Made by a program: the position numbers and the translations under genes. The notes beneath the pieces are model-generated. The model ran no database searches. It saw nothing but the letters and a program-made list of their open reading frames with translations, and was not told the DNA's origin. 64,000 nucleotides of DNA from Antedon mediterranea (Eukaryota > Animalia > Echinodermata): contig NC_092678.1 of assembly GCF_964355755.1 (NCBI RefSeq), positions 9,440,422 to 9,504,421 on the forward strand, given 5' to 3'. Shown piece by piece: positions 10,072-64,000 of this stretch; within the stretch, counting starts at the first letter, position 1; each line of letters starts with the position of its first letter.

Positions 10072-10102
<31 letters not shown>

Positions 10103-11084: not shown

Positions 11085-11115
<31 letters not shown>

Positions 11116-18437: not shown

Positions 18438-18474
<37 letters not shown>

Positions 18475-21400: not shown

Positions 21401-21820
21401 TCTATCTATCTCTCTCTCGCAGATCTATCTCTCTCTCTCGCTGATCTATCTATCTCTCTCTCGCTGATCCATCTATATTTCTCTCGCTGATCTATCTCTC
21501 TCTCGCTGATCTATCTATCTCTCTCGCTGATCTATCTATCTCTCTCTCGCTGATCTATCTATCTCTCTCTCGCTGATTTATCTCTCTCTCGCTGATCTAT
21601 CTATCTCTCTCTCACTGATCTATCTCTCTCTCTCGCTGATCTATCTATCTCGCTGATCTATCTCTCTCTTGCTGATCTATCTCTCACTCTCTCGCTGATC
21701 TATCTCTTTCTCGCTGATCTATCTCTCTCTCGCTGATCTATCTCTCTCTCGCTGATCTATATCTCTCTCGCTGATCTATATCTCTCTCGCTGATCTATCT
21801 CTCTCTCGCTGATCTATCTC

Positions 21821-26800: not shown

Positions 26801-28646
26801 TCGCTGATCTATCTCTCTCTCGCTGATCTATCTCTCTTGCGCTGATCTATCTATCTTTCTCTCGCTGATCTATCTCTCTCTCACTGATCTATCTCTCTCT
26901 CGCTGATCTATCTCTCTCTCTTTCGCTGATCTATCTGTGTCTCGCTGATCTGTCTCTCTCTCGCTGATGTATCTCTCTCTCGCTGATCTATATCTCTCTC
27001 ACTGATCTATCTTTCTCTCTCGCTGATCTATCTCTCTCTCTCGCTGATCTATCTCTCTCTCGCTGATCTATCTCTCTCGCTGATCTATCTATCTCTCTCT
27101 CTCTCGCTGATCTATCTCTCTCTCGCTGATCGATCTATCTATCTCTCTCTCGCTGATCTATCTCTCTCTCGCTGATCTTTCTATCTCTCTCACGCTGATC
27201 TATCTCTCTCCCGCTGATCTATCTATCTCTCTCTCGCTGATCTATCTATCTCTCTCGCCGATCTATCTCTCTCTCGCTGATCTATCTATCTCTCTCGCTG
27301 ATCTATCTCTCTATCGGTGGTCTATCTATCTCTCTCTCGCTGATCTATCTCTCTCTCGCTGATCGATCTATCTATCTCTCTCTCTCGCTGATCTATATAT
27401 CTCTCTCTCGCTGATCTATCTCTCTCTCGCTGATCTATCTCTCTCTGGCTGATCTATCTATCTCTCTCTCGATGATCTATCTCTCTCGCTGATCTATCTA
27501 ACTCTCTCTCGCTGATCTATCTCTCTCTCGCTGATCTATCTCTCTCTCTCACTGATCTATCTCTCTCGCTGATCTATCTATCTCTCTCTTTCGCTGATCT
27601 ATCTCTTTCTCTCGCTGATCTATCTCTCTCGCTGATCTATCTCTCTCGCTGATCTATCTCTCTCTCGCTGATCTATCTCTCTCTCCTCGATCTATCTATC
27701 TCACTCTCGCTGATCTATCTATCTCTCTCTCGCTGATCTACCTATCTTTCTCTCGCTGATCTATCTCTCTCTCGCTGATCTACCTCTCTCTCTCTATCTC
27801 TCGCTGATCTATCTCTCTCTCTCTCTCTCTCTCGCTGATCTAACTCTCTCTCTCTCTGATCTATCTCTCTCTCTCGCTGATCTATCTCTCTCTTGATGAT
27901 CTATCTCTCTCTCTCTCGCTGATCTATCTATCTCTCTCTCGCTGATCTATCTCTCTCTCGCTGATCTATCTATCTCCCTCACGCTGATCTATCTCTCTCT
28001 CGCCGATCTATCTATATCTGTCTCGCTGATCTATCTATCTCTCTCTCGCTTATCTATCTATCTCTCTCTCGCTGATCTCTCTCTCTCTCGCTGATCTAAC
28101 TCTCTCTCTCTGATCTATCTCTCTCTCTCGCTGATCTTTCTCTCTCTTGCTGATCTATCTCTCTCTCTCTCTCGCTGATCTATCTATCTCTCTCTCACTG
28201 ATCTATCTCTCTCTCGCTGATCTATCTCTCGCGCGCTGATCTATCTATCTCTCTCGCTGATCTATCTCTCTCTCGCTGATCTATCTCTCTCTCGCTGATC
28301 TATCTATCTCTCTCGCTGATCTATCTATCTCTCTCTCGCTGATCTATCTGTGTCTCGCTGATCTGTCTCTCTCTCTCTCGCTGATCTATCTATCTCTCTC
28401 TCGCTGATCTATCTCTCTCTCGCTGATCTATCTATCTCTCTCACACTGATCTATCTATCTCTCGCTGATCTATCTCTCTCGCTGATCTATCTATCTCTCT
28501 CTTTCGCTGATCTATCTCTCTCTCCTCGATCTATCTATCTCACTCTCGCTGATCTATCTATCTCTCTCTCTCGCTGATCTACCTATCTCTCTCTCGCTGA
28601 TCTATCTCTCTCTCGCTGATCTACCTCTCTCTCTATCTCTCGCTGG

Positions 28647-28683
<37 letters not shown>

Positions 28684-37297: not shown

Positions 37298-37330
<33 letters not shown>

Positions 37331-40300: not shown

Positions 40301-43230
40301 GATCTATCTCTCTCCCGCTGATCTATCTATCTCTCTCTCGCTGATCTATCTATCTCTCTCGCCGATCTATCTCTCTCTCGCTGATCTATCTATCTCTCTC
40401 GCTGATCTATCTCTCTCTCGCTGACCTATCTATCTCTCTCTCGCTGATCTATCTCTCTCTCGCTGATCTATATCTCTCTCGCTGATCGATCTATCTATCT
40501 CTCTCTCTCGCTGATCTATATATCTCTCTCTCGCTGATCTATCTCTCTCGCTGATCTATCTCTCTCTCGCTGATCTATCTATCTCTCTCTCGATGATCTA
40601 TCTCTCTCGCTGATCTATCTATCTCTCTCTCGCTGATCTATCTCTCTCTCGCTGATCTATCTCTCTCTCGCTTATCTATCTCTCTCTCGTTGATCTATCT
40701 CTCTCGCTGATCTACCTATCTCTCTCTCGCTGATCTATTTCTCTCTCGCTGATCTACCTCTCTCTCTCTCTATCTCTCGCTGATCTATCTATCTCTCTCT
40801 CTCTCTCTCGCTGATCTAACTCTCTCTCTCTCTCTGATCTATCTCTCTCTCTCGCTGATCTATCTCTCTCTTGATGATCTATCTCTCTCTCTCTCGCTTA
40901 TCTATCTATCTCTCTCTCGCTGATCTATCTCTCTCTCGCTGATCTATCTCTCTCTCGCTGATCTATCTATCTCTCTCACGCTGATCTATCTCTCTCTCGC
41001 TGATCTATCTATCTCTGTCTCGCTGATCTATCTATCTCTCTCTCGCTGATCTATCTATCTCTCTCTCGCTGATCTCTCTCTCTCTCGCTGATCTAACTCT
41101 CTCTCTCTGATCTATCTCTCTCTCTCGCTGATCTATCTCTCTCTTGCTGATCTATCTCTCTCTCTCTCTCGCTGATCTATCTATCTCTCTCTCGCTGATC
41201 TATCTCTCTCTCGCTGATCTATCTCTCGCGCGCTGATCTATCTATCTCTCTCGCTGATCTATCTCTCTCTCGCTGATCTATCTCTCTCTCGCTGATCTAT
41301 CTATCTCTCTCGCTGATCTATCTATCTCTCTCTCGCTGATCTATCTGTGTCTCGCTGATCTGTCTCTCTCTCTCTCGCTGATCTATCTATCTCTCTCTCG
41401 CTGATCTATCTCTCTCTCGCTGATCTATCTATCTCTCCCACGCTGATCTATCTATCTCTCTCTCTCGCTGATCTATCTCTCTCTCGCTGATCGATCTATC
41501 TATCTCTCTCTCGCTGATCTATCTATCTCTCTCTCGCTGATCTATCTCTGTCTCGCTGATCTATCTATCTCTCTCACGCTGATCTATCTCTCTCCCGCTG
41601 ATCTATCTATCTCTCTCTCGCTGATCGATCTATCTATCTCTGTCTCGCTGATCTATCTATCTCTCTCTTGCTGATCTATCTATCTCTCTCTGATCTATCT
41701 ATCTCTCTCTCGCTGATCTATCTCTCTCTCGATGATCTATCTCTCTCTCGCTGATCTATCTATCTCTCTCGCTGATCTATCTATCTCTCACTGATCTATC
41801 TGTGTCTCTCTGATCTGTCTCTCCCTCGCTGATGTATCTCTCTCTCGCTGAACTATATCTCTCTCACTGATCTATCTCTCTCTCGCTGATCTATCTCTCT
41901 CTCGCTGATCTATCTCTCTCTCGCTGATCTATCTCTCTCGCTGATCTATCTATCTTTCTCTCTCTCGCTGATCTATCTCTCTCTCGCTGATCGATCTATC
42001 TATCTCTCTCTCTCTCGCTGATCTATCTCTCTCTCTCGCTGATCTATCTATCTCTCTCACGCTGATCTATCTCTCTCCCGCTGATCTATCTATCTCTCTC
42101 TCACTGATCTATCTATCTCTCTCGCCGATCTATCTCTCTCTCTCGCTGATCTATCTATCTCTCTCGCTGATCTATCTCTCTCTCACTGACCTATCTATCT
42201 CTCTCTCGCTGATCTATCTCTCTCTCGCTGATCTATATCTCTCTCGCTGATCGATCTATCTATCTCTCTCTCTCTCGCTGATCTATATATCTCTCTCTCG
42301 CTGATCTATCTCTCTCGCTGATCTATCTCTCTCTCGCTGATCTCTCTATCTCTCTCTCGATGATCTATCTCTCTCGCTGATCTATCTATCTCTCTCTTGC
42401 TGATCTATCTCTCTCTCTCGCTGATCTATCTCTCTCTCGCTGATCTATCTCTCTCTCGTTGATCTATCTCTCTCGCTGATCTATCTATCTCTCTCTTTCG
42501 CTGATCTATCTCTCTCTCGCTGATCTATATCTCTCTCACTGATCTATCTCTCTCTCGCTGATCTATCTCTCTCTCGCTGATCTATCTCTCTCTCGCTGAT
42601 CTATCTCTCTAGCTGATCTATCTATCTCTCTCTCTCGCTGATCTATCTTTCTCTCGCTGATCGATCTATCTATCTCTCTCTCGCTGATCTATCTCTCTCT
42701 CTAGCTGATCTATCTATCTCTCTCTCTCGCTGATCTATCTCTCTCTCGCTGATCTATCTATCTCTCACTGATCTATCTGTGTCTCGCTGATCTGTCTCTC
42801 TCTCGCTGATGTATCTCTCTCTCGCTGAACTATATCTCTCTCACTGATCTATCTCTCTCTCGCTGATCTATCTCTCTCTCGCTGATCTATCTCTCTCTCG
42901 CTGATCTATCTCTCTCGCTGATCTATCTATCTCTCTCTCTCTCTGATCTATCTCTCTCTCTCGCTGATCGATCTATCTATCTCTCTCTCGCTGATCTATC
43001 TCTCTCTCTCTCGCTGATCTATCTATCTCTCTCACGCTGATCTATCTCTCTCCCGCTGATCTATCTATATCTCTCTCGCTGATCTATCTATCTCTCTCGC
43101 GGATCTATCTCTCCCTCTTGCTGATCTATCTATCTCTCTTGCTGATCTATCTCTCTCTCGCGGATCTATCTATCTCTCTTTCGCTGATCTATCTCTCTCT
43201 CGCTGATCGATCTATCTATCTCTCTCTCGC

Positions 43231-43521
43231 AGTCTCAGGAGTGCTCGTACTGGAAGATTGCGATCCGCGGCTGCTGACACAAACCGATATCTTTTCTCCT
43301 TTCTGCCCACAGGTATCAGGAGACATCAGCGACATTCATCCAGATGAGCACCATGAAATAATATGTAATAATATGTTCTTGTTGTGAGTTTTTAATATTG
43401 GTATTGTTGTATTGTCATGTTATTTTATATATTGTAATTATGATGTATTTGAAGACGAGCAATGTAAATTTTCTCCTTGTGGGAAAGAAATAAAGATTAT
43501 ACTTGATACTTGATACTTGAT
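43231..43521 (+). mobile_element. 5'-truncated non-LTR retrotransposon 3' end (Rex/Babar or L2/CR1 group)
   Basis: 43231-43347 translates SLRSARTGRLRSAAADTNRYLFSFLPTGIRRHQRHSSR*, resembling the ORF2 C-terminal motif TxRxxxSFxPxxIR. It is followed by an AT-rich 3' UTR, AATAAA at 43489 and a (ACTTGAT)3 tail at 43501-43521. Confidence 0.85.
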
Positions 43522-46500
43522 CTATATATCTCTCTCTCGCTGATCTATCTCTCCCTCGCTGATCTATCTCTCTCTGGCTGATCTATCTATCTCTCTCTCG
43601 ATGATCTATCTCTCTCGCTGATCTATCTATCTCTCTCTCGCTGATCTATCTCTCTCTCGCTGATCTATCTGTTTCTCGCTGATCTATCTCTCTCGCTGAT
43701 CTATCTATCTCTCTCTTTCGCTGATCTATCTCTTTCTCTCGCTGATCTATCTCTCTCGCTGATCTATCTCTCTCTCGCTGATCTATCTCTCTCTCGCTGA
43801 TCTATCTCTCTCTCCTCGATCTATCTATCTCACTCTCGCTGATCGATCTATCTCTCTCTCGCTGATCTACCTATCTCTCTCACGCTGATCTATCTCTCTC
43901 CCGCTGATCTATCTATATCTCTCTCGCTGATCTATCTATCTCTCTCGCGGATCTATCTCTCTCTCTCGCTGATCTATCTATCTCTCTCGCTGATCTATCT
44001 CTCTCTCGCTGATCTATCTATCTCTCTCTCGCTGATCTATCTCTCTCTCGCTGATCGATCTATCTATCTCTCTCGCTGATCTATCTCTCTCTTTCGCTGA
44101 TCTATCTATCTCTCTCACGCTGATCTATCTCTCTCCCGCTGATCTATCTATATCTCTCTCGCTGATCTATCTCTCTCTCACGCTGATCTATCTATCTCTC
44201 TCTCTCTCGCTGATCTATCTCTTTCTCGCTGATCGATCTATCTATCTCTCTCTCGCTGATCTATCTATCTCTCTCTCGCTGATCTATCTCTGTCTCGCTG
44301 ATCTATCTATCTCTCTCACGCTGATCTATCTCTCTCCCGCTGATCTATCTATCTCTCTCTCGCTGATCGATCTATCTATCTCTGTCTCGCTGATCTATCT
44401 ATCTCTCTCTTGCTGATCTATCTATCTCTCTCTGATCTATCTATCTCTCTCTCGCTAATCTATCTCTCTCTCGATGATCTATCTCTCTCTCGCTGATCTA
44501 TCTATCTCTCTCGCTGATCTATCTATCTCTCACTGATCTATCTGTGTCTCTCTGATCTGTCTCTCCCTCGCTGATGTATCTCTCTCTCGCTGAACTATAT
44601 CTCTCTCACTGATCTATCTCTCTCTCGCTGATCTATCTCTCTCTCGCTGATCTATCTCTCTCTCGCTGATCTATCTCTCTCGCTGATCTATCTATCTCTC
44701 TCCCGCTGATCTATCTATATCTCTCTCGCTGATCTATCTATCTCTCTCGGATCTATCTCTCTCTCGCTGATCTATCTATCTCTCTCGCTGATCTATCTCT
44801 CTCTCGCTGGTCTATCTATTTCTCTCTCGCTGATCTATCTCTCTCTCGCTGATCGATCTATCTATCTCTCTCTCGCTGATCTATATATCTCTCTCTCGCT
44901 GATCTATCTCTCTCTGGCTGATCTATCTATCTCTCTCTCGATGATCTATCTCTCTCGCTGATCTATCTATCTCTCTCTCGCTGATCTATCTCTCTCTCGC
45001 TGATCTATCTCTCTCTCTCTCGCTGATCTATCTCTCTCGCTGATCTATCTATCTCTCTCTTTCGCTGATCTATCTCTTTCTCTCGCTGATCTATCTCTCT
45101 CGCTGATCTATCTCTCTCGCTGATCTATCTCTCTCTCGCTGATCTATCTCTCTCTCCTCGATCTATCTATCTCACTCTCGCTGATCTATCTATCTCTCTC
45201 TCGCTGATCTACCTATCTCTCTCTCGCTGATCTATCTCTCTCTCGCTGATCTACCTCTCTCTCTCTATCTCTCGCTGATCTATCTCTCTCTCTCTCTCTC
45301 TCTCGCTGATCTAACTCTCTCTCTCTCTGATCTATCTCTCTCTCTCGCTGATCTATCTCTCTCTTGATGATCTATCTCTCTCTCTCTCTCGCTGATCTAT
45401 CTATCTCTCTCTCGCTGATCTATCTCTCTCTCGCTGATCTATCTCTCTCTCGCTGATCTATCTATCTCTCTCACGCTGATCTATCTCTCTCTCGCTGATC
45501 TATCTATCTCTGTCTCGCTGATCTATCTATCTCTCCCTCCTCAGAGCGCACATGCAAAAATGCACATCGGCCACCTACAGTTTTCAGTGAGAAACATGCA
45601 CATTTGATGATAATCTAGGGGGACTTTCCACAGTAAGACATAGGCACAGGTGCATGTTTGCTCTCCGCGAGACTGTCACTATGAGAATTGCACATATGCT
45701 GATTTACATATAATTATTACTCTTTCTCTACCTATTCAATAAAAAGTCTGTAAAATATCGTTTTTCTGACAGATTATTTAAGTCTCTAATTAACATTCAT
45801 GTCTCTAATGATTTACACGTTATCTTCCTTGTTTTTTATGAAAAATATCGTTTTGGGGAAAAAATTGAGTAATGTTCTAAGAACGATAGGTCGTCATATT
45901 TTTTATTTCACATTCACCAACATCGTCCTTTAAACATTTACTTTACATTGGAAACATATAACGTTTATATTTTTCCTATGTAAAAAAACACCAAAAGATC
46001 GTTTTTCCAGAGTTTCAACCCGATTTGACATCGGGAAAATGGTTTCCGCGGCGATTTTTATGTGTGTACTTAAAGGTGCACATATGCTGATTTTACCAAA
46101 AACACGTTATTTTACACAAAAATTCATCGTTTTGTAAAAATTTTGAGTTTCATACACAATACATTTATATACTCTCTTTTTTTAATGAAGAAAACTAAAA
46201 AAAATATCGTGTCTTTTTTGAAAAAAATGTAAAAAACGCGTAATTTCTCAGACTCGAATGCACTTTTGATGATTTTTGAATTTTTTCATGACTTATAACT
46301 TGGTATGTATTTGATTAAATTGTATGAAGTATGCTTTTCTCTACTCACTTTTCAACAAAGAAAATATTCTCTTCGGTCAAAATCGATAATTTATCGTTTT
46401 TCGGCTATAATTAATTACCTTTTATGTAAAGAGCGCACGTCTAAATTGAGGTCGCCCTTTCACTGGAGGCTCGTTCGTTATTATATTTTTTAAATAGTTT

Positions 46501-49080
46501 TATAACTGTAGTTTGGTTATTTTAATAAAGTAGATTTAATTAATAACTATGCTGATTTTTATTTATTTTTAGGAGTTGTTTGATTAAAATTCGACAATTT
46601 TATGTTGCCTTAATCGAATTTGTTAAAAATTAAACTAGTAAATAAATAAAATTAGCCGTTAGGGTTATGTCAACCCAATGTTTGTGAATGCTAAATTCCG
46701 TAATTTCTTCAAAATTACTACTTTACTTTATATGAAGCAATGCTTTGATTATATTTCTATAACATATCAAAGGGATTTAATTGAAACTGTACAAAAAAGT
46801 GACAATTTATGCGATTTTCTATACCATACAAAAAAATTTGGAACGCGAAATATCCTTTTTGTAACATACAGAACGAAATTGATATTTGTTTGCGGTTCAA
46901 CACACATTGAGGTTATCGCGTCGGTCCGCAGACGTCACGCTATATTGGCAATTAGGTTTAGCGTAATTTCGCTATCGTAAACAGATATTTTTTTCTTATT
47001 TTGCTTCGATTTTATTTTAATTTGGCTGTTACACTTATTCTTTCCTTTTATTGGCGTCAGACACTGTGCATTTGTGAACCAAGGGAGATCAATTTAGTGA
47101 CTTGGGAATGAGTAAATAGTGAATTATTGAGCATTATTCTGCGGACTTCAAATTCAAAAGTGGAACCCGGAGGTTCAGCGTGGATCAATTATCATAATAT
47201 AAACAAACGGGACCAAACAAACATGTAGGATGGCTTTTTTCGGTAAACGATTAAACAAATGACTAGACTATAATATGTAGTACTTTTTATTGTCTTATAA
47301 TAAACAAGGGAGAGGTAGGGATCATAGCTATGTCTACGCTAGGCCGAAGTTTAAGCCAGGCTAGTTAGAGGGCCTCCAGTCGTATTGTAGTACTGTAGTA
47401 GTAGGCCTAGCCTATAGTTATATAGTTAATTGAAGTAGGTAGGCCTAGATAAAGTAGTCTAGGCCTAGTTTGAATGTTCAAGTACTTTAGTAATACTATC
47501 AAAGTATTCACAGCATTTATATTCACAGGCTATCTAGACTAGTTGCTAGCTAGGCGAAAATAACATTATTATTGTTATACTGCCCTTAATAACATGGAGT
47601 AATAATAAGGATAAGGTCTTGTTGGATGAGGCCATCGATCAAGTTTACATTCCGTACAAGTTGTTCTGTTTTTCTGTTGTAAATTAGTATTTTCTATCAA
47701 TCATCAACATTTGGTGTTGCGGCTATCGGGACATCAACCTCATTGGCTAATAAACAGCTCAATAAACAGCTCAGTGAATTTCGGCCACTGATATGTCTGT
47801 TGCCGCATCCCTACTTACCAACAAAAAACACTCTTATAGACAATCGTCAATAAAAACAATTTTCAGAAAAAAATTTACAAATTAGGTCAGCCGAAACCAA
47901 ATCAAATTACTAGAAAAAACTAAAAAATATTCATTTGATGCCAGGTAAACTGTGCCGATAGAAATGGTCCCGATAGAAATGGTCATGGTGTACCCTAATG
48001 TAAAGAACATACTGTAAAGAAAATAATAAATCTTCTGAAACACCATTTTAAAAGCATTACCTTCGATTTCATAAAAGGAAGACACTGTCGTATCTACCAT
48101 AAATATCATTTGAGAGACAAAAAAAATTCAAGAGTGAAACAAAACACAATACAATATTTAAAATTGTATTGATTACATCACACAGAGAGTGTCAATGTTC
48201 CATTACATGAAATGCTTAAATTTGACTGGGAATTATGCAATGAACAATAAATATTTATTTAAATAAGAAATAATAATTAATTTGATTTGAATTTATTAGG
48301 AAAATCATAAAATATACATACAAAGTAATAACATAATGAGGAAACTGGACAATTGACCAATGAAGCTAGGAGGTTTTGAATACCGGCAGACTAAAAACTG
48401 TCCATTTTAGAGGATTATCAAATGATCAATGTATTAAATAAATAAAAATATTAAATAATATTAATATAAAATCCTTTTTTTTAATATGACGAGACATGTT
48501 TATCAAAAATATTAGAATTCGTGGAAGGAAATATTTGATTCATATTAAAATGAATTATAGTGGAATTACTCTTGAAATATAAAATACTCATGACAAGAAT
48601 ATAGAAATCACAATTTAATGTACACATTTCATTGCAAAAGTTTCCCCTCTGCTTTTTTGTAAGGGCTTGGGACCTTCAAATACAAAGTGCAATGAATGAT
48701 TTAATGTAAATTATAATGTAACTATATAAACTTATTGTAATAATATAAAAATTACAAAATAATTCACTACATTAACCATTGCTCTTTGGATTTGGCAGCA
48801 TTAAAAACTTTTTTTTTATTATTATTTTTATTAACTTTATTGCACATTCAGAAAACCATTAGATATGGTGGCCCAATGGCCAAATTGCATAAAATATAAA
48901 ATATTTTGTAAAAAGTGAAAATAAAATAACAGAACAAAACAAAAAATAGAAGATATATATATATATGAAACAGTATAAAAACTCTATCCATGGCTACAAA
49001 AATCATTTGGAATCATTCTTGTTGCTGTTTTTTTTTCCACTCTTGACGATGGTGACGGGTGGCAACCAATAGCCAATTTT

Positions 49081-50091
49081 CATGCTTCATCAGATGTTGC
49101 AGCACAATACCAATTTCCATAGTACTGAGTGTGGTTCTTATTTAACCTTGGTTGCTTACACTTTGAGCACACAATCACAGACATTCTTGATTTGTACATT
49201 TTGATCGGTTTCCAATGTTTTTAGCCACTCGTTTTCTGTACAAGAGGGTAGTTCTAGGAATGCGAGTACTACTAGCCGCAGGGACTGATGGTGGTGGGTT
49301 TGCTATCTCGCCTGGAACTGGGATCGACAGTCTGTTTCCTAGAGTTGCTCGGCCGGAAGTGTTTTTTGGTTGGACAAATGTGAGAGATGGAGCGCTTGCA
49401 GGATCGTTTAGCACCGCTGGATTGGTTAAAGGTTCAAGTAGGGTATTATCAGAGACAAGTTTGGGTATTGTTGCTGAGATGCCAGATTCCAAAACTTGCT
49501 GCTCTTGCTTCTTTGATGTTCTGTTGTACCTGTAATAACATCAATAACAAGTTAAAACTCACCGCTGGATGAGTGTCGTATGATTTATCTCCATCAGCTG
49601 AAGCTTACCAAACAACATCAGGTGTCCATTTGATAGCACTTTCCGACGAATGTTTTTGTAGCCTTTGCCGATTAGCGGCCAGCGCTGGAAATGTTTCCCT
49701 CCGATATATACGGTAGACGGATACTCTTCACATAGTTTTGTAATAAGGCACTCCATATATCGATTGCAGTCCGGCCATTGGGCTGGTCCGGTGTTCTGAC
49801 CTAAGAAGCATCTGTTAACCTACAAAGTGAAAAACGCAGGAAACTGCCTTACTGTCGAGTGCTTTCAACACCAGGTATTACAGCAGTCGTTTTACTTTTC
49901 TTGAACCTGCCTTTTGTGAGGTAATCGTGATGCCGTGCTTTGCGCTTAACGGTTTTGTCATACGCATCCAGGTTGTTCCACAACTTTGTGACATGTTCAG
50001 CATGACTTTGACTTATGACTTCACTGTCTTCCTTAAACTGCATAAGGTAGCAGCCTGGAATGCTGTCTAGTCCAGTGGAATCCTCAAGTTC
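49081..50091 (-). pseudogene. Spliced C-terminal half of a probable Dada-superfamily (DUF6729-family) DDE transposase, degraded
   Basis: Exons 50091-49853, 49811-49563 and 49529-~49081, joined by GT-AG introns of 41 and 33 nt, give ...KLWNNLDAYDK...KGRFKKSK...PGVESTRQ/CFLGQNTGPAQWPDCNRYMECLITKLC...LMEINHTTLIQR/YNR.... After a frameshift near 49200 comes a CCHC finger, CSKCKQPRLNKNHTQYYGNWYC. Family assigned from recalled motifs; no DDE core found upstream. Confidence 0.7.
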
Positions 50092-52314
50092 CTAAATTTT
50101 GTTAAGAAAATATGAAAACAACATAAATAATAAGACTTTATGCATTGTATTGCAAAACAGAAACAAAATTTATGAGGTAAATAATAATAATATTTATTCG
50201 GTCATCAATGTAAAAACAAGCACGAATGTGGGGGTACAGCGAAAGAAGCTGTAATGACGTCCTAAGACCATAAAGAGAAAATGTTTTATAAGGGAAATAA
50301 GAATAAAGGTGGGCGATACCCACAAAAGAGAAGAAAAACAAATGCTTTAAATCTCAACCAAAGTTACATTAAGCAAGTCTTTAATGTATCAATATTTGAT
50401 TTGATCATCGGATGAGTTTTTAATTAATTTAATCCTGAGAATTCCATATAATTTGTAATTCTAACATGAAGCTATAAAATTAGATGATTCTACCATAGCA
50501 TAACATAAATGGAGCACGATTGAGAAGAGACAGCATTATGTTATTATATGACATTTTTTGCTTTAAAAGTGACAATTGCTAGTATACAACAGGGAAGACA
50601 GGCAGGCCCGAGGTGCTCTGAATCTCTGATGTAGAATTACATCTCTGTCGTAGAAAGTTCCAGGAAGACATATGACACTGCACAAGGAAAACCAAAAATA
50701 AAATTGATTATAACGTAATGTGCAGGTGGTAATTGTGTTGCCTTAATAACTTCTGTAGAAACTACCTTTCGATTGATCTGACCTTAGGTAGGTTGTCGGT
50801 GGTCATCTGAAACTAGAATACATCAAAATTGCCAAGTTGAGGAGTGAGGGAGGACGTCCTAATATCTCTGCATGCACACAATGTTCTGAACACAACCTTA
50901 TTTTAAGTATTATGGAATAAAAATTTATTTGATTGATTAATGGATTACCTTGGGAATTACCTGAATACAGTAAATGCAACCAGTTACAATAGTTGTCATC
51001 ATTAATGACTTCAACACCAACCCACATAGATGAAACTGAAAGTATAACAATGTAAATACAGTTGTTCTGAGTTCAGTAATGTGGGGGAAGTTAGTAATAA
51101 CTAGCGTCAGAATAAACAACACAGGTACCAATAATAAAGCAGGAGTTCTCAACAGTTTTCAATCGTACGCCACATTGTAATTTACTAATAATGTTGTGTG
51201 CCAGAGATAGAATGTGAAGTCACAGGTGGGGGAACCAGCCGTGTAACAAGGGTGTTGTGTTGAATTGTGAACAAAGCATTATAGTCAACACTCCTACTAG
51301 TAAACAAAACAGAAACAAAATATTTCATCTCATATTTGATACAACACAGTTCGTTAAGTTGTGCAGTATTATTATTTAATTTGACATTTAATTAAATAAA
51401 ACACATGCATACAAAACATACGTATTGTAAACTCTTACTTTTAAACTGCAAAAGGATGTTATGATGAAGAATATCCAGAATGTTAACAGCAACTAACTGT
51501 TGGTGGAAAATTAATGGCATATTAAAATATTAGAGTTTTCAGTTTATATTTATTAGACAACTGATAGACAAACTATATATAGATAGATATTACCCAAGTA
51601 CAAATAATAATTCACTGTCAATTAATAATTTATAACTTTTTTTTTTTCATTTATAACAATATTTGTAAAAATTATACTAAACCTTTTGTTTAGATCAGCT
51701 TTTTGAAATAATGCCCTGCTATTTTAGGGTATTTAACATTAGCGTATACTCAGAGTATACATACAGAAGAGTTGGTGTTAAAAAGGAGAAAGCAGAAATA
51801 AAAATAACCTATTACAAGTAAAATAGTTTTTGCAAACTAGCTACAGTGTGGTTATAACTTACCAGGTCTAAATGTGTTTGTTGTAATAATGACTGCTAAA
51901 AACCATGACTCTGAAAGAAACTCAAAGTAACTCAAACTACATGTTAATCAACATCAAAACATATGAAAATAATAAGGTAGCATGTTGTGGTGGCTTTATC
52001 ATTAACTAAAATACTGCCATGTTAGGATATGCTTGGGATTGGCTTCACGTTCTATTTCTGCCAATTTTCTGAATAATCTATTAAGCTACAGAATGCTAGA
52101 ATTATGTTTAACCTGTCTGTGATTTGATGATCCATATATAACATCTTGAAAGGTCTTTCCTTGCATAGAAGACAAAACTACTGTTTTCATTAATTACTTT
52201 ATAGAATTTTATTTTTCTTTTTTTGTAACTTAAATTAACATTTCCATTATTAAATCATTTAAAATAGTATAACATTTCAACAATTCATTATTAACACATG
52301 CTATGAATATAATA

Positions 52315-52764
52315 TAGTCGACTCTCCAAATACTGGACTCTGAACTGAAAAAACCGAACACTCTCCCAATACCAGAATTGTCTTGAGGACCAGAAGACCC
52401 CAAATTCCTAAGCTTTTAATATTAAGAGAATTTTCCAAAGCATGTAGGGAAACTCAGAAAACTCAGAAACTGAGCAGACAGGTCTATTTTCAATAAGGTG
52501 ATGGGACCAGGATAGCTTTATTTGCCAAGTCATGCATAACATATCGTTTGAGGGGCTTCATAAGCAGCCGCACATGTGGTTTAATCTTTTGTTTTAATTT
52601 AGCTGACTGAGACAATCACTACATAGTTGCACGCTTATCCACTTTAGCGGACTTCCTGCTATGCGGAACAGGATGTAAACTCGTTAAAAAACACATTCCA
52701 AATACCAAACCGTTACAGAATCCAACATATTCTGCCAGGTGTCCGGTATTAGGAAAGTTGACTG
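52315..52764. mobile_element. pogo/Tigger-like (Tc1-mariner) MITE
   Basis: Imperfect TIRs: TAGTCGACTCTCCAAATACTGGAC on the left and the reverse complement CAGTCAACTTTCCTAATACCGGAC on the right. Flanked by TA at 52313-52314 and 52765-52766. Confidence 0.75.
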
Positions 52765-52884
52765 TACAATAATGAATAATTTATCAACTACATATGTTAT
52801 TAAACCACCACACAAACAATTAATGTTAAATATTAAACGATGAAACATGTTTTGTCTAAATCAACTAACAATTACTTATTAAGG

Positions 52885-53076
52885 GTATGTTCAGACTCTT
52901 GACGTAAAAGTACTACTTCTCCCTACCATCCACAAACCGAGGAATTAGTGGAAAGCTTTAATGGCACCCTTAAGTGTATGGTTTGTTCAGGATGATCCCC
53001 GGGAATGGAATAAATTGCTTCCGTACCTATTATTTGCTTATAGGGAGATACCGCAGGAGTCTACTGGGTTCTCCCC
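52885..53076 (+). pseudogene. Gypsy/Ty3 (Gmr1-like) integrase fragment
   Basis: With frameshifts it reads TSPYHPQT.GLVESFNGTLKCM...VQDDPREWNKLLPYLLFAYREIPQESTGFSP, the conserved end of the integrase core. Confidence 0.88.
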
Positions 53077-54045
53077 ACATGATACGTCCACCTAGGGATA
53101 GTATGACTGATAACCACATCATGGAGGAAATAAAGTTCATCAGTTTTTATATGAGAAAACAAATTTGTTATCCTTACTCTGTAGAGATAGTCAACTGAAG
53201 GCAAACAGACAAAAGTGATTCTGCTAACTTTTCTAATCAGACGATCTATTAATTCTTTATCTTTGTTAAAAGCAATTTCTCCCCATCCCGTTAAGCAATA
53301 ACTCCAAACCCCACAAACAACTGACGTATAAAAGATATTGATGGTTTTGTTACTCACATTAAAAGCATTTACATACGAGTATTTAATTTCTTACTAATAT
53401 ATTCTAAATATTCAGAAAAATTTAATCTATCTCTACATGATTACCATCAATAATGAATGAATAATATCAGTAGATGCCCTAAATTTATTACGAAAATCTA
53501 TTACCATTTCTTTGGTCTTAGAATAGCAGTATTAAGTTTAAGATGGTTTTTATTACAAAAACCTTACAAACCGGTCAATTTCAGCTTTATAATAACCATA
53601 GTTGTCATTTTTGACCCAGGATGGCTGTATCATCAGCTAATTTGATAACAGGACAGTCTGGGTGATCGGACTTAAAGTCTGAAGTGAACACAGTGAATAG
53701 GAAAGGGGCTAAAACTGTGCCCTGTGGGGAACCTGTGTTACTAAACAATAATTTCATATTTAACTTCGCTGTTCAGTTTAATATATTGATATCTATGTGT
53801 CAAAAAAATTAAGTACAAGGCCATTCAACTTATTAGGTACGTTGGCATTTATCAAATTATTTGTCAACAGATGAAGGCCGATGATAGATCAAAATACATT
53901 ATTCTGACACTGTGTTGGTGTTTGTACCCTCTAAATGAGAATAATGTATAACGTCTGTGTAATATTGATCCATTACGATTGATTATTGCGATTAAAATCA
54001 TCATTTATTATAATATAAGCATCAGCGTATTTGGCTTCAATATCT
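53077..54045 (-). pseudogene. Degraded Rex/Babar-like LINE ORF2 (reverse transcriptase plus DUF1891-like region)
   Basis: Minus-strand motifs VRIMYFDLSSAF (~53890), NTGSPQGTVLAPFLFTVFTSDF (~53720), IKLADDTAILG (~53630) and FYTSVVCGVWSYCLTGWG (ORF 53061-53357). Multiple indels; boundaries approximate. Confidence 0.88.
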
Positions 54046-54105
54046 AAGATAACATCATTTATTTCACAAAGGACCTCTTTTCCAAGATTAGTGTGCGGAA
54101 TGTAG

Positions 54106-54440
54106 ATGGAAATGTTCATAGTAACTGAAAATTCGCATGGAAAAACTACTGTAATAAAGCATGACGTACACCCAGTTAGACAAAAAGCTTATCCAATTCA
54201 TCAGGCTAAGTTAGGCAAAGTAAAAGAAGAGTCTCACTGTCCAAAACGCGACGGTACAGCTCGCTTTAACATGAATTACAAAAAAATGCATATCCAATGC
54301 CACGGATAAATGAAATAATAGGCAGGGTTGGTACTACTAAATTTATAACGAAATTAGATTGATGTAGAAGGTTCCTAACTGAACGGTCAAAACCATATAC
54401 AGCTTTTCCAACACCAATGGTTTTGTAACAATTTAAGTGT
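54106..54440 (+). pseudogene. Gypsy/Ty3 reverse transcriptase N-terminal fragment
   Basis: GKTTVIKHD...PVRQKAYPI...PKRDGTARFNMNYKK / AYPMPRINEIIGRVGTTKFITKLD / SKPYTAFPTP. Internal deletions and stops. Confidence 0.85.
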
Positions 54441-54479
54441 TAGGCCAAGAGTCTGGACATACCCTAAATAACCACAGTA

Positions 54480-55781
54480 CATATGTTGTTTAAATCAGTT
54501 CAACAATTCTGATTAAACCATGACACATGTTTTGTTTAAATCAGGTCAGCAATTACTGATTAAACTATGACACATGATTTGTTTAAATCAACTAAGCAAC
54601 TAATGTCTAAAAAACCACACATGATTTGTTTAAACATGGAGTAAATATAACTCTATGGTTTAAATCAGTTCAACAATTACTGATTAAACCAGGACACATG
54701 TTTTGTTTAAATCAACTAAGCAAACTGATTAAACCACCACACATGTTTTGTTTAAATCAGGTCAACAATTACTGATTAAACCACCACACATGTTTTGTTT
54801 AAATCAGGTCAACAATTACTGATTAAACCATGACATATGTTTTGTTTAAATCAGGTCAACAATTACTTATCCATGACACATGTTTTGTTTAAATCAACTA
54901 AGCAACTAATGTCTAAAAAACCACACATGTTTTGTTTAAACATGGAGTAAATATAACTCTATGGTTTAAATCAGTTCAACAATTACTGATTAAACCTTGA
55001 CACATGTTTTGTTTAAATCAACTAAGCAACTAATGTCTAAAAAACCACACATGTTTTGTTTAAACATGGAGTAAATATAACTCCATGGTTTAAATCAGTT
55101 CAACAATTACTGATTAAACCATGACACATGTTTTGTTTAAATCAACTAAGCAAACTGATTAAACCACAACACATGTTTTGTTTAAATCAGGTCAACAATT
55201 AATGATTAAACCATGACATATGTTTTGTTTAAATCAGGTCAACAATTACTGATTAAACCATGACACATGTTTTGTTTAAATCAGTTCAACACTTACTTAT
55301 TAAACCATGACACATGTTTTGTTTAAATCAACTAAGCAACTAATGTCTAAAAAACCACACATGTTTTGTTTAAACATGGAGTAAATATAACTCTATGGTT
55401 TAAATCAGTTCAACAATTACTGATTAAACCTTGACACATGTTTTGTTTAAATCAACTAAGCAACTAATGTCTAAAAAACCACACATGTTTTGTTTAAACA
55501 TGGAGTAAATATAACTCCATGGTTTAAATCAGTTCAACAATTACTGATTAAACCATGACACATGTTTTGTTTAAATCAACTAAGCAAACTGATTAAACCA
55601 CAACACATGTTTTGTTTAAATCAGGTCAACAATTAATGATTAAACCATGACATATGTTTTGTTTAAATCAGGTCAACAATTACTGATTAAACCATGACAC
55701 ATGTTTTGTTTAAATCAGTTCAACACTTACTTATTAAACCATGACACATGTTTTGTTTAAATCAACTAAGCAACTAATGTT
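54480..55781. repeat. ~47-bp tandem repeat (TTAAACCATGACACATGTTTTGTTTAAATCAGGTCAACAATTACTGA) with a 434-bp higher-order duplication
   Basis: AAACC at 54731 and 54778 gives 47 bp. Variant markers recur 434 bp apart (54995/55429; 55161/55595). A degenerate outlier lies at ~52790-52882. Confidence 0.95.
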
Positions 55782-60008: not shown

Positions 60009-60203
60009 ATATACATACAGTTTATTTAGTGATATTTTCCCCGACGATCTATTTCTGTAAATAATAAATAAACATGTATAATTAATTTATGTATGATAGC
60101 ACTGTATTTCACTTACTTTGAAAGAAGACAGGCAAATCTTCATAGTTCTATAGAAAACTTGCAATGCTTTTAAATAATTTCTTGCTACTGCATGCCACTG
60201 AAA

Positions 60204-63200
60204 TTAAAAACATAAACCTACCTTTGGATACATCCTCCTCATTTTGTCATATAACTGTTGAAATTCATAGTAATGGAGAACTGGATTTTTGTTATAGACT
60301 TCTCTTGCCTACAAAAAAAAATAAAAATTGTATTTAATAATGTGATGGTGATTATTACAATTAAATAGATAATACATAAACATTAAACATACTGTTCTTT
60401 TTGGCACATGACCCTCTTCTATTTGTCTGCCAAACAATTTAAATACAGCGTCCATAACGTCTTGGTTGTCGAATTTCGACTTTGGGCCATGTTTGCTTAG
60501 TGGATGGCTTACAGACTAGTTATATTGAAAGTAGAAAAATAATAAAGTCAAATTAATAGGTGAAATAAGTTTTACAGAAAATGTACTTTAGTATTTCAAA
60601 TGAGAATTGTATTGATGTTTTAGATAACAATAATAATGACAATAATACCAGGAGTAATTAAAGTGCTTGTAAGATTATCTGGTGGATGATGTTAATATGA
60701 AATTGTATGCCACATATGGATTTGATTATGGGTGATTAGCATAGATTAAATTAAAATAAAATAAACACATTCTATAAACTCAGTACTACACAAAACTAAA
60801 AATGCATGCAGTTATTTGGTGGTTGATGTTAAAATAAAAGTGTATGCCACATCAGGATTTGAACCCGAGACAAGAGTGTCGATGCTCTACCAGCTGAACT
60901 ATGATAGCATCCTATAAAAGAAATAGATTTTAGTGATTAGCATGGATTAACACATTCTATAAACCACTAAACAAACAAAAAACGTGCATGCAGTTATCTG
61001 GTGGATGATGTTAATATGAAAGTGTATGGCACATCAGGATTTGAACCCGAGACCAGAATGCCGATGCTCTACAAGCTGAGCTATGATAGCATCCTATAAA
61101 AGAAATAGATTTTAGTGATTAGCATGGATTAACACATTCTATAAACCACTAAACAAACAAAAAACGTGCATGCAGTTATCTGGTGGATGATGTTAATATG
61201 AAGGTGTATGCCACATCAGGATTTGAATCTGAAAAATTAGCATAGATTAAACTAAAATAAAACAAACACACAAACACATTCTATAAACTACTAAGCTACC
61301 AACTGAGCTATGATAGCATTCTATAACAGAAGAAGATGTTGATATTTAGTATGGAAAAATCATTCTGAAAACTACTACATTTAAACAGTATACAACTGCA
61401 AAGTGAGGATTTGAACAATTACTTTAGAAACTACAGAAGTTATCTTGGGGAGGCCTCAAATTAGTTTGTATAAATAAATTAACTAAGCATACAAACTAGA
61501 GAATACAAAGAGTAATGTGCAAATTTAAAAAGTAAACATTTTCCTGTTTTTTGAGATACCAAGACCTGATAAAAACAGTTAAAGAATGTCCATACAAGTA
61601 CAAGGGACATTTTGCTGACCTGAAATAAAAACTAATTAAACAAGTACAGTAAAGCAAAATATACCAGGAAACTTTGCTGACCTGGTAAAAACATTAGTGC
61701 AATATATTGGGAGACTCAAAATCCTACCATCACCCAAGGAATCATACTGCAGTACTAAAACGATAATGTACAGTACTCATACAAATTGTTTAAAAATACT
61801 ACATCAACGTTGACCATATATTGCAGTACCAATTAAAAAGAGTGTGGTCTGGCAATATTAGTTTGATGCTTTACAAATGTGTCCTTATTAACAATTATTG
61901 AATACTTACAGATGATGGCGCTTCATTCGCATGTGCTTGAGAAATTTCCTGGTGAATGTAAAATAATATTGTACATAATACCATTACTTGTTTCATTATT
62001 CGTAAAGAGGTATACAAGATAATAATAATGATTACATAGAATTCAGTCCTGTAAATAAATGGACACTGGAAAAATATATATTTATGTGAAAATTGTATCT
62101 TACCAGCATTTCATCTATGGTGTCCTCCACACTTGAAAATGCAACCTAGAAAAGATATACCTTAAAGTGAAGTATGTATTGCATTTGGGATAATAAAAGC
62201 TTAACATTAAAATGATTTAAGATGCGAAATTGTTTTCCTTTAATTGGTAGTTATACAGCATTTATAAAACACATAAATTATACAGTTTGCATTCTTTTGT
62301 TTTTTATATGAAAGTAATGACCATCCTTACCTGGACATCAGCAGTTTCATTTATATTCTGAAAGAGTGTACATAGCACATTAAAAAAAGTAAAGTAAAAT
62401 TTTAGTTAATAGATGCAATGTTTGTTTTCTTGTTGATTGCTAATTATTAAAGTGTTAGATATATTCTTTATATTATGTTATGTTTCAATACAAAATAAAC
62501 ATCTTTCGGGATACAAACATTTTAGACAGAAATTAAATCTTACCCCACTTCTCCCGAGTTGACGGTTTGCAGCTATAAGATTGTGGGCTCTTACAGCCGT
62601 CTCCCGGGACTGCGTGGCCTTATAGTACGCCTCTTGCGTTGATAATGTGTGGGCCATATGGTCAGCAACCACAACTCTTTCCCTTTCGTCGCAGTGACCC
62701 CAGGACTGATGAAATTATTTAAAGAGAAGGTAATATGTAATGAATTATTCTACACTTACAAATTGTGTCCCACATAATTCCCAAAACATGGTTTATCACT
62801 TGAAAATAATATTTCTCATCTATTGATAGGTTTAAAGCAATTTAAGTAACAATAATAATAATAATAATAATAAACAGTATTTATATAGCGCCTAATGGAT
62901 CACTGACCCCTCTAGGTGCTTTACATAGGACCTTAAATAATGGTAATAAACTATCCCCCGCCGGACACCATTCCGGTATTTCTTAGTCGAGCTTTCGGGG
63001 ATGGAGACAATCAATAATGTGAGGAAAAAAAATGTAATAAAGCTTAACTATGTTTAACTAAGGTAAAACAATCACATACTAGAGTGGCTGCTGCCTTTCT
63101 TAAATTGGTGGGATTGATGGGCCTGGTGCTGTGTGTTACTTCCGCCCAGTGGCGGGTCATTTCCTGAGCGCATCTAATTGATGCCCCTGTGCAACTCAGG

Positions 63201-63924
63201 AACAGGTGGTCGGTTGCCGATTGTATTGGCCTACAGTACTTTATGTAAATCTCTATTAATTCAGCCAGCTCTTCAGTTATCACTAAATTTGCTGCACCAA
63301 ATTTACAAGATGTTTTATGCTTTGAAACCTGCAAAATCACTTAATGATTATTAACATATAACATATAGACAACATAACAAAATTGGTTGCTAATGATGTT
63401 TTATAATTCACAATACTCTTACTGTTCTGTAGCTTACTTCATCGACTTCATCATATTTCTGTAGCTGTTGATTTGTGTAATGATAGCCCACTGAACAACT
63501 TAAACTGTGTACAACAACCAAAACATGTAAACTGTTAATTCATATATTCAAGAATACATTAAAAAATGTATATTGTACTCACTTTCATAACTGACATGCC
63601 ATTTGTGGCTGCTGTTCTTTTATAATACTGCTCCAAAGTAGCATTCGCCAGAACACCAGTCCTACAACCATTATTCATGGCCAGAAGTAGCATAATATGA
63701 ATGCGGAGGAACCGCTTAGATGGGTTTTCCATATTCTCCCCGTTTTTTATCCTTTCTGAAAGTTTGATAAACAGTTTTTTTAATAAAAACTAAATTTGGT
63801 TGAGGAACCACTTTAGTACTAAAAATCTGTTGAATCAAACTTATACATCAGTAGATTTGTATAAGTGAAGGAGCAAGACCGAAAAAAACCCCATAAAATA
63901 TGGATTTCTTACCAATAGCATTTT
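60204..63924 (-). CDS. Multi-exon tyrosine recombinase (lambda-integrase fold) gene; 5' end lies beyond the window
   Basis: GT-AG exons 63924-63913, 63755-63583, 63328-63080, 62705-62544, 62357-62331, 62145-62104, 61948-61910, 60515-60393 and 60308-60222 join in frame without stops: ...IMLLLAMNNGCRTGVLANATLEQY...VMK/VSKHKTSCKFGAANLVI...YIKYCRP...LFLSCTG...INPTNLRKAAATL/SWGH...VADHMAHTLSTQEAYYK...VFKLFGRQIEEGHVPKRT/AREVYNKNPVLHYYEFQQLYDKMRRMYPK. The 3' end is uncertain: read-through stop at 60204-60206, or further exons. Confidence 0.88.
60680..61320 (-). repeat. 182-bp tandem repeat containing tRNA-derived heads (Pol III A and B boxes), in a recombinase intron
   Basis: Minus strand 60908-60846 reads GCTATCATAGTTCAGCTGGTAGAGCATCGACACTCTTGTCTCGGGTTCAAATCCTGATGTGGC. 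A second copy is at 61090-61028, with partial copies at ~60709 and ~61210. Only 63 nt, with a defective anticodon arm. Confidence 0.75.
62851..62925 (-). mobile_element. L2-type LINE/SINE 3' tail in a recombinase intron
   Basis: Minus strand TGTAAAGCACCTAGAG...AGGCGCTATATAAATACTGTT(TAT)n, resembling the L2-clade 3' stem-loop plus short-repeat tail. Confidence 0.7.
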
Positions 63925-64000
63925 CTAAAAGAAATACATTTTTATGATCAGCACAAATTAAAAATAAAATGAAATAAAAGAAATAACATGTGCATGTCAG

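What the first reader, a model, noticed from the sequence alone, without database searches (positions are those of the whole stretch)
60204..63924. Apparently intact intron-rich tyrosine recombinase amid decayed repeats
Seen: nine exons with canonical splice sites join in frame. They give the catalytic order R (NGCRTG), K (KHKT), TxxR in place of HxxR (PTNLRK), H (HMAH) and Y (EAYY). Established: in animals, tyrosine recombinases belong to mobile elements (Cryptons, DIRS-type retroelements, integrases of some endogenous large DNA viruses) or to domesticated derivatives, which usually lose catalytic residues. No RT/RNase H is fused here, so it is not DIRS-like. Inference: a catalytically competent integrase of a poorly characterised animal YR family, much better preserved than every neighbouring TE fragment.
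Basis: partly seen in the sequence, partly recalled or inferred. Interest (0 to 1): 0.85.

Follow-up and report, generated by a model that had tools for sequence, protein, structure and literature searches.

The report
Spliced animal tyrosine recombinase among satellites
This is the back half of a real, intron-split animal gene for a DNA cut-and-rejoin enzyme that keeps its key cutting residues and is likely the moving enzyme of a large, little-studied jumping element that probably lands in repetitive DNA.

Summary
Observation confirmed. Nine exons plus a tenth, 6-nt terminal exon (minus strand, all GT-AG) give 305 codons without a stop. The spliced model matches uncharacterised crinoid and brittle-star proteins end to end (183 bits; best shuffle 8). 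Exon 3 weakly hits XerD (E 9e-4), and predicted homologue structures rank Cre/Xer first, though none reach E 0.001. R, K, R, H and Y are present; Thr for His is family-wide. The gene occurs in three coded organisms with dN/dS about 0.2 on the listed differences. The N-terminal part (zinc fingers and core-binding domain in the crinoid homologue) lies beyond base 64,000, so 'intact' is unproven. No transcript, second end or copy number was obtained. DNA down to about 45,540 occurs in the same runs as the gene and ends at a CT-rich satellite that a second organism lacks there. Best reading (0.55): recombinase of a large, low-copy, repeat-associated Crypton-like element, similar in design to nimaviral integrases and possibly CryptonV. 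Rivals: domesticated gene, viral integrase. Not DIRS-like; not CryptonA.

The parts
63913..63924 (-). Exon 1 of the visible model, 12-nt micro-exon (phase 1 at both ends); more exons expected beyond 64,000
   Evidence: splice signals and phase only, weak homology
63583..63755 (-). Exon 2: start of the catalytic domain, catalytic Arg35 (63663-63661)
63080..63328 (-). Exon 3 (83 codons): Lys66 (63316-63314), Thr135-x-x-Arg138 (63109-63098)
   Evidence: XerD HMM E 9.4e-4; homologues; same 83-residue unit repeated in a scallop gene model
62544..62705 (-). Exon 4: His163 (62651-62649) and likely nucleophile Tyr172 (62624-62622)
62331..62357 (-). Exon 5, 27-nt linker micro-exon
   Evidence: splice signals and phase
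62104..62145 (-). Exon 6, 42-nt acidic linker micro-exon
   Evidence: splice signals and phase
61910..61948 (-). Exon 7, 39-nt linker micro-exon
   Evidence: splice signals and phase
60393..60515 (-). Exon 8: first half of the C-terminal helical (Myb/SANT-like lead) domain
   Evidence: Myb/SANT only as a weak lead
60222..60308 (-). Exon 9: second half of the C-terminal helical domain
60049..60054 (-).
60021..60026 (-). AATAAA poly(A) signal just after the stop
62839..63066 (.). High-copy repeat inserted in intron 3; one contig of another organism-A sample joins across without it
   Evidence: depth up to about 100x the exons; X5 record 13
60675..61377 (-). Tandem 182-bp tRNA-like (SINE-head-like) repeats in intron 7
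   Evidence: weak Rfam tRNA match E 0.43; high depth
55945..59997 (.). 82-bp satellite, about 49 units, starting directly behind the poly(A) signal; candidate internal satellite of the element
   Evidence: related to the 47-bp unit
54479..55780 (.). 47-bp satellite array, homologous to the 82-bp unit (11 of 2000 shuffles score as high)
45536..54450 (.). Downstream DNA held by the same runs as the gene: unique non-coding stretches plus decayed TE remains; candidate element body
   Evidence: contigs of organisms A, B, C; inference that it is element cargo
45530..45581 (.). Candidate element end: junction with the CT-rich satellite; contigs of A start at 45530-45542 and of B at 45581
   Evidence: inference, the other end was not seen
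1..45535 (.). CT-rich 19-bp satellite flanking the block; candidate target in this genome
   Evidence: first-bin depth 137,673 in A (X1) against 383 in B (X6)

Best explanation
This is the C-terminal 305 codons of a spliced animal tyrosine recombinase gene that keeps Arg, Lys, Arg, His and Tyr of the active site, and it is likely the recombinase of a large (probably at least 18.5 kb), low-copy, Crypton-like DNA element that probably inserts into simple repeats. Shown: exon structure, residues, homology, presence in three organisms, purifying selection on the listed differences. Inferred from homologue P0010: upstream exons encode C2H2-type fingers and a core-binding (SAM-like) domain. Inferred from Cre/lambda chemistry: four subunits would bind the two element ends, Tyr172 would form a 3'-phosphotyrosine, and two rounds of strand exchange through a Holliday junction would excise a circle that re-inserts by the reverse reaction, leaving no transposase-type target duplication. 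Inferred, weakest step: the fingers and the C-terminal helical domain choose repetitive target DNA, here the CT-rich satellite at 45,535, and the element carries its own satellites and TE debris.
For: Recombinase; Foldseek ranks 1-12 all Cre/Tre for the P0010 model and ranks 1-11 all tyrosine recombinases for the P0003 model; Atlas look-alikes are unnamed arthropod and chordate clusters, then Preplasmiviricota clusters, one with PF00589 on 16% of members. Selection: 12 synonymous and 8 non-synonymous among the 20 exonic rows listed (dN/dS 0.18-0.25, P 0.0002-0.002); 8 and 3 among rows shared only by B and C; 12 of 12 listed indels intronic. Family of copies: organism B shows parallel variant contigs of unequal depth in exon 2, around exon 6 (352 and 147) and at the candidate end (295 and 210, the second with 60-110-bp gaps). 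The exon 2-3 zone differs from B and C by 8.5% and 9.0%, the downstream non-coding DNA by only 2.5% and 2.6%, as expected from exchange between paralogous subfamilies. Homologues occur at two loci in Anneissia, one with two YR copies, and as tandem exon copies in a scallop. Left flank differs: no B contig runs over the CT satellite. Precedents: nimaviral YRs have C2H2 plus SAM-like domains, five of seven key residues, multi-exon members and telomere or rDNA targets (PMC10871703); some CryptonV families target microsatellites (PMC8869645).
Against: Only one candidate end is in the window; no terminal repeat, junction circle or empty site was seen, and the hairpin near the end is not significant (z 0.10). 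Contig depth is low and even (X1 61-163 over the gene, 132-173 downstream), with half-depth contigs that fit a single heterozygous locus equally well; the tool states that depth is no copy number, and B's variants could be alleles or pooled animals. An orthologous locus in three close species with an A-specific satellite beside it explains the co-occurrence too. Nine introns, micro-exons and dN/dS about 0.2 fit a host gene. Two of seven Cre active-site positions deviate, and Val at the Glu176 position is very weak in Cre. Both structure models are poor (mean pLDDT 52 and 54), no Foldseek match reaches E 0.001, and VIA Z for Cre (6.5-6.9) does not exceed unrelated helical bundles. The substitution counts use 40 displayed rows of 205. 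No telomere repeats in the window.
Confidence: 0.55

Rival explanations
1. A domesticated or immobilised single-copy host gene derived from a YR element. It would work as a nuclear DNA-binding protein or a site-specific recombinase/resolvase of the host, and the surrounding block would be an ordinary orthologous repeat-rich locus.
For: Purifying selection and no listed exonic indel across three organisms; even, low depth with half-depth variants in X1; ten exons with micro-exons and a poly(A) signal; decayed LINE and Gypsy-like fragments shared by A and B at about 2.7% divergence. Domestication of YRs is known (PMC3212892 abstract); an earlier scan note reports a dead domesticated YR in sea urchins (e1-9885390, unchecked).
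Against: Known domesticated DUF3504 genes lack most of the R-H-R-Y tetrad, whereas this one keeps R, K, R, H, Y. Closest annotated homologues are only about 28-41% identical and are duplicated or rearranged. The catalytic exons are three times more diverged than nearby non-coding DNA, the reverse of what a conserved host gene should show.
Confidence: 0.25
2. The integrase at one end of an endogenous large DNA virus (nimavirus-like or Polinton-like) whose viral genes lie beyond base 64,000.
For: Domain order of homologue P0010 and the five-of-seven residue count match the description of nimaviral YRs, some of which are multi-exon and repeat-targeted. Nearest named Atlas clusters are Preplasmiviricota proteins at 0.93.
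Against: The 14.5 kb downstream holds satellites, AT-rich non-coding DNA and TE remains, with no long ORF (longest stop-free stretch 121 codons in 45,500-55,950). No relative was found in IMG/VR, GenBank phages or BFVD at E 0.001. Kawato et al. also found such YRs in decapods outside nimaviruses. Nimaviral sequences were not compared directly.
Confidence: 0.12
3. A recently dead copy: the visible half is still open because little time has passed, but the gene is broken upstream or silent, like the other TE remains in this heterochromatic block.
For: It sits between satellites; introns 3 and 7 have taken repeat insertions; differences private to the window copy (other letter shared by A and B, or by all three) are 3 synonymous and 3 non-synonymous of 6 listed; the 5' half is unseen.
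Against: 915 coding bases without a stop or frameshift, 9 of 9 splice pairs canonical, whereas the neighbouring DDE-type gene copy has a 22-bp deletion against other copies and a premature stop.
Confidence: 0.08

Closest known systems
Nimaviral telomere- and 28S-rDNA-associated tyrosine recombinases (Kawato et al. 2023, PMC10871703; passages read)
   Same: C2H2 finger plus SAM-like domain plus YR (seen here in homologue P0010); five of seven key residues; some multi-exon; repeat-associated; related YRs exist outside viruses.
   Different: No viral genes and no telomere or rDNA repeat in the window; an extra linker and C-terminal helical domain. The paper's text does not say which five residues are kept, and no sequence comparison was possible.
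CryptonV (Kapitonov and Jurka 2012, Repbase Reports; not read, known only from one sentence and the citation in PMC8869645)
   Same: Animal YR-only DNA element; some families insert in microsatellites, and this block abuts a (CT)n-rich satellite.
   Different: Its sequences, domain structure and ends were not available, so membership is open. A body of 18 kb or more with internal satellites is not mentioned in what I could read.
CryptonA / DUF3504 and CryptonI (Kojima and Jurka 2011, PMC3212892, abstract and sections 5 and 8; Glomhopper paper PMC13465315, abstract and sections 3 and 6)
   Same: YR without reverse transcriptase, in animals, intron-bearing copies known.
   Different: No DUF3504 match in 7 of 7 aligned members. 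[quoted passage not shown]
Cre, XerD/XerH, Tn1549 integrase (solved tyrosine recombinases)
   Same: Fold ranking, order and spacing of R..K..xxxR..H..Y (His to Tyr nine residues), XerD HMM hit on exon 3.
   Different: Thr for His289, Val for Glu176, 11-17% identity, eukaryotic introns, extra terminal domains.
Starship captains (DUF3435) of fungi (search listing and background of PMC13465315)
   Same: Intron-bearing YR at one side of a possibly large cargo-carrying element (an analogy).
   Different: No DUF3435 match except E 0.029 on the repetitive scallop model; animal host; no cargo genes shown.
DIRS/Ngaro/VIPER YR retrotransposons (PMC13465315 section 3; PMC6681497 passages)
   Same: YR as integrase.
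   Different: No RT/RNase H linked to the gene in the window or in the homologues; intron-rich.

Membership tests
Tyrosine recombinase superfamily | Catalytic Arg, Lys, second Arg, His/Trp and Tyr in order | tested here: met
   R35, K66, R138, H163, Y172, aligned with homologues
Tyrosine recombinase superfamily | His of HxxR and acidic residue at first Arg +3 | tested here: not met
   Thr135 and Val38; T/S and V/A in all homologues that cover the sites. Both positions tolerate substitution in Cre, Val only very weakly
Tyrosine recombinase superfamily | Integrase catalytic fold | tested here: inconclusive
   Top Foldseek ranks are all YRs for two homologue models but E is 0.03-0.97 and pLDDT 52-54; XerD HMM E 9.4e-4, far under its cut-off. 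Taken with the residues, the assignment is very likely
Tyrosine recombinase superfamily | Core-binding domain N-terminal to the catalytic domain | tested here: inconclusive
   Outside the window; in homologue P0010 residues 141-237 align to Cre 32-128 (Z 6.9, rmsd 3.5, 87 aligned)
Tyrosine recombinase superfamily | Phosphotyrosine cleavage and strand exchange | not testable with these tools
   Needs a biochemical assay
Crypton (broad sense: eukaryotic DNA transposon with a YR) | YR is the only mobilising enzyme, no RT | tested here: inconclusive
   None linked inside the window or in P0010; DNA beyond 64,000 unseen. The RT fragment at 53608-53772 is a decayed LINE piece
Crypton (broad sense) | Dispersed copies with defined ends and short direct repeats or empty sites | tested here: inconclusive
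   One candidate end, variant contigs in B, no whole genome held
CryptonA / DUF3504 | DUF3504 domain | tested here: not met
   0 of 7 members match at E up to 10 (HMMER filters drop weak matches); 0 of 5 exons
CryptonA and CryptonI | No C-terminal domain after the YR | tested here: not met
   A conserved C-terminal domain follows the linker (0, 0 and 2 of 2000 shuffles reach the scores with three homologues); feature
CryptonV | YR clusters with CryptonV sequences | not testable with these tools
   Repbase sequences and report not available; review not held
CryptonV | Specific insertion in microsatellites | tested here: inconclusive
   One junction with a CT-rich satellite; a single site cannot show specificity
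Nimaviral-type YR | C2H2 plus SAM-like plus YR architecture, five of seven residues | tested here: inconclusive
   Met by homologue P0010 and by the residue count; N-terminus of this gene unseen
Nimaviral-type YR | Clusters with nimaviral YRs in a tree | not testable with these tools
   No nimaviral YR was returned by any search; the paper's supplements held as text gave no YR passages outside the review file
Endogenous nimavirus | Viral core genes, and telomere or 28S rDNA flanks | tested here: inconclusive
   None in the window; upstream unseen
DIRS/Ngaro/VIPER | Linked gag, RT and RNase H; split or inverted terminal repeats | tested here: not met
   None downstream in the window; homologue carries fingers and core-binding domain upstream of the YR; nine introns
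Domesticated Crypton genes (ZMYM, KCTD1, KIAA1958 type) | Loss of most of R-H-R-Y | tested here: not met
   R, R and Y kept, plus K and H/W

The most novel reading that the evidence does not exclude
An undescribed class of large (18 kb or more), repeat-homing animal DNA elements, a counterpart of fungal Starships: mobilised by an intron-rich zinc-finger / recombinase / Myb-like protein with a TxxR active site, carrying and seeding their own satellites, swapping the catalytic exons between subfamilies, and possibly the pool from which nimaviruses took their telomere- and rDNA-targeting integrases.
Probability: 0.3. Interest if true: 0.75.

Novelty: new variant of a known kind. Interest (0 to 1): 0.45.

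Why it matters
Animal YR-only elements are thinly described: in the ten paper searches run here CryptonV appears in only three papers, as a name or one sentence, and this protein family is annotated as 'uncharacterized' or 'hypothetical' in echinoderms, arthropods and chordates. If it is the recombinase of a large repeat-homing element, it gives a testable eukaryotic site-specific integrase, a route by which satellites move and grow, and a cellular source for nimaviral integrases. If it is CryptonV or a relative already in Repbase, it is one more well-kept copy.

Tried and rejected
No whole genome is held, so copies and the upstream exons could not be read. No RNA holder listed; X5, guessed as RNA, keeps introns and shows no splice joint: no evidence either way on expression. 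Word-index homologue searches found nothing new: exon 3 against longer proteins 0 of 29 candidates; alignment A2 1 of 6534 and P0010 275-445 1 of 210, both only P0002 itself; these searches missed even known homologues, so they say nothing on family size. Three of the 7 phmmer hits (two Mycena, one Algoriphagus) are repeat artefacts and were dropped. PHROGs and PDB sequence searches gave nothing relevant. VIA-align wide search was filled by the C-terminal helices and listed no YR in 50 rows; the C-terminal domain's fold stays a Myb/SANT lead only. Hairpin at the candidate end z 0.10 and a CATGCAC inverted pair (chosen after the fact) rejected as evidence for an end. No telomere repeats, tRNA genes or Rfam match above threshold. 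A splice-site scan for a second gene at 45,540-48,200 and 50,290-52,900 gave scattered candidates and no model. No tree was built: only four homologue loci and no Crypton, DIRS or nimaviral reference sequences were in hand. Earlier-finding look-ups by sequence or place were empty. Paper searches for a description of this family; none listed one beyond the nimavirus paper, but Repbase Reports and most subscription journals are not held.
Full report
Observation. The minus strand of 63,924-60,049 carries ten exons joined by nine GT-AG introns of 84-1,394 nt. Joined by coordinates they give 305 codons and a stop, while the other frames hold 21 stops each; exons are 43% GC, introns 29%. Eight of nine introns are phase 0. 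The model begins mid-protein, so the gene continues past the window edge. No whole genome is held.

Homologues. phmmer with exon 3 against 1.84 billion representatives gave 7 hits at E up to 0.001. Four are real: two loci of the crinoid Anneissia japonica, one of the brittle star Amphiura filiformis, one of the scallop Argopecten irradians, all 'uncharacterized'; three are repeat artefacts. A profile made from homologues alone aligns to residues 4-301 of the model at 182.8 bits, best of 999 shuffles 8.2, and the C-terminal domain aligns on its own (0, 0 and 2 of 2000 shuffles). Homologues also back the borders of exon 3: the scallop model repeats an 83-residue unit with the same start and end, one Anneissia YR copy breaks off at the exon 3/4 position, and another begins at the exon 2/3 position (inference from protein models). 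The fullest homologue, P0010 (572 aa), reads C2H2-like fingers, helical core-binding domain, YR catalytic domain, acidic linker, helical C-terminal domain. About 270 of its residues lie N-terminal to what the window shows. The ESM Atlas puts P0010 next to unnamed arthropod and chordate clusters (0.93-0.97) and then Preplasmiviricota clusters (0.93), one with Phage_integrase on 16% of members; the family is therefore probably widespread in animals. The host is not known; the nearest annotated homologues are echinoderm.

Is it a tyrosine recombinase? Exon 3 alone hits XerD (E 9.4e-4) and Phage_integrase (E 0.17), both far below cut-off. AlphaFold models of two homologues are poor (pLDDT 52, 54), yet Foldseek ranks 1-12 are all Cre/Tre and ranks 1-11 all Xer, Tn1549, Cre or staphylococcal integrase, with E 0.03-0.97. 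VIA-align adds little. The residues are R35, K66, T135-x-x-R138, H163 and Y172, nine after the His. Five of Cre's seven active-site positions are kept. Thr for His289 and Val for Glu176 are family-wide. In Cre, His289 accepts all but D, E, K, R, W; Val at 176 is active but very weak (PMC2943603, abstract and sections 23-24). Activity is therefore plausible but not shown.

Selection. Nine runs of three coded organisms hold the stretch. Four were laid, all contigs with introns, none with a splice joint. Of 205 differences 40 were displayed; 20 are exonic: 12 synonymous, 8 not (dN/dS 0.18-0.25; P 0.0002-0.002 against neutrality), and 8 against 3 among those shared only by B and C (8 displayed rows in intron 7 were left out of the script). 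All 12 displayed indels of 45 are intronic. The display favours well-supported rows, so these are indicative figures.

Surroundings. Behind the poly(A) signal come an 82-bp satellite (about 49 units), a 47-bp satellite homologous to it (11 of 2000 shuffles as high), decayed LINE and Gypsy-like pieces, the decayed 3' part of a high-copy DDE-type gene (Dada/Zisupton-like by a recalled motif, untested), 2.3 kb of AT-rich unique DNA, and at 45,535 a CT-rich 19-bp satellite that fills the first 45 kb. Earlier scan notes describe the same protein design in 14-23 kb elements embedded in telomere repeats, with internal satellites (unchecked leads). To test for such a unit I laid the same four runs on 45,505-54,450. 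The unique parts are held by all four runs at depths similar to the gene (X1 132-173 against 61-163; X6 256-300 against 275 to about 860; X9 2.6-6 against 4-7.7). In B no contig runs over the CT satellite (first-bin depth 383 against 137,673 in A), and two variant contigs cover the candidate end region. On the longest listed contig pieces, leaving out high-copy repeats and three short pieces, the exon 2-3 zone differs from B by 71 of 840 and from C by 63 of 703 bases, the downstream unique DNA by 123 of 4,981 and 43 of 1,641. Coding DNA three times more diverged than non-coding DNA points to exchange between paralogous subfamilies. Against this, depth is not copy number, half-depth contigs in X1 fit one heterozygous locus, the second end is unseen, and no terminal structure passed a control.

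Mechanism. Shown: gene structure, residues, homology, selection signal, co-occurrence of the block. Inferred from known YR chemistry: synapsis of the two ends, phosphotyrosine strand exchange through a Holliday junction, excision as a circle and reinsertion. Inferred and weakest: targeting of simple repeats by the fingers and C-terminal domain, and carriage of satellites. I give the mobile-element reading 0.55, a domesticated gene 0.25, a viral integrase 0.12, a freshly dead copy 0.08.

Comparison. It is not CryptonA (no DUF3504), and unlike CryptonA/I it has a C-terminal domain (PMC3212892 sections 5 and 8). It is not DIRS-like as far as visible. It resembles the nimaviral YRs of Kawato et al. 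(PMC10871703, passages) in domain order, residue count, introns and repeat association, and CryptonV in possible microsatellite targeting (PMC8869645, passages), but neither could be compared by sequence. Also seen: PMC13465315 (abstract, sections 3 and 6), PMC4455052, PMC5753468, PMC6681497, PMC12130899 and PMC4157794 (passages only). Figure 7 and the YR alignment of the nimavirus paper were not visible to me and bear on membership.

Verdict. A real, well-kept animal tyrosine recombinase gene of a family that annotation leaves unnamed, most likely from a Crypton-like element, with mobility, intactness and activity unproven and possible prior cataloguing in Repbase. New variant of a known kind; interest 0.45.

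Noticed in passing
window 1-45535: About 45 kb of a CT-rich 19-bp satellite, interrupted by blocks of a 186-189-bp repeat at about 2778-6056 and 21830-23880 with the same junctions, and by a 300-bp insert at about 43230-43520; abundant in organism A, apparently rare in B.
   Followed up: partly
window 48200-50290 (-): Decayed 3' exons of a high-copy DDE-type transposase-like gene (GPAQWP motif, Dada/Zisupton-like from recall, no Pfam hit); 22-bp deletion against other copies and a premature stop; far deeper in organism B than in A.
   Followed up: partly
window 54479-55780 and 55945-59997: The 47-bp and 82-bp satellites share one motif and are probably of common origin; a degenerate unit lies at 52767-52884.
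   Followed up: partly
window 52876-54471: LINE (RT, endonuclease) and Gypsy-integrase-like fragments lie between 32-bp inverted repeats, 88% complementary, like a small composite element; shared with organism B.
   Followed up: no
window 62839-63066: Polymorphic high-copy insertion in intron 3 with an (AAT)n tract; resembles a Penelope-like end with hammerhead-type motifs from recall, but no Rfam match.
   Followed up: partly
window 60675-61377 and 63915-63961: tRNA-like 182-bp tandem repeats in intron 7; the acceptor region of micro-exon 1 resembles the repeat's upstream part (79% over 47 nt, E 1e-4), and each repeat could itself read as a 21-nt phase-0 micro-exon.
   Followed up: no
window 50780-52100 (-) and 47330-47560 (+): Exon-like segments with good splice signals and unusually low divergence (2 of 287 bases in organism C at 51120-51405), and a TAGGCCTA-rich stretch like an invertebrate first intron (recall): possibly a second, unmodelled transcript.
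   Followed up: partly
P0013 / P0014: The Anneissia model holds two YR copies in one protein and the scallop model three tandem copies of the exon-3 unit: these gene models look like fused tandem or fragmented element copies.
   Followed up: partly
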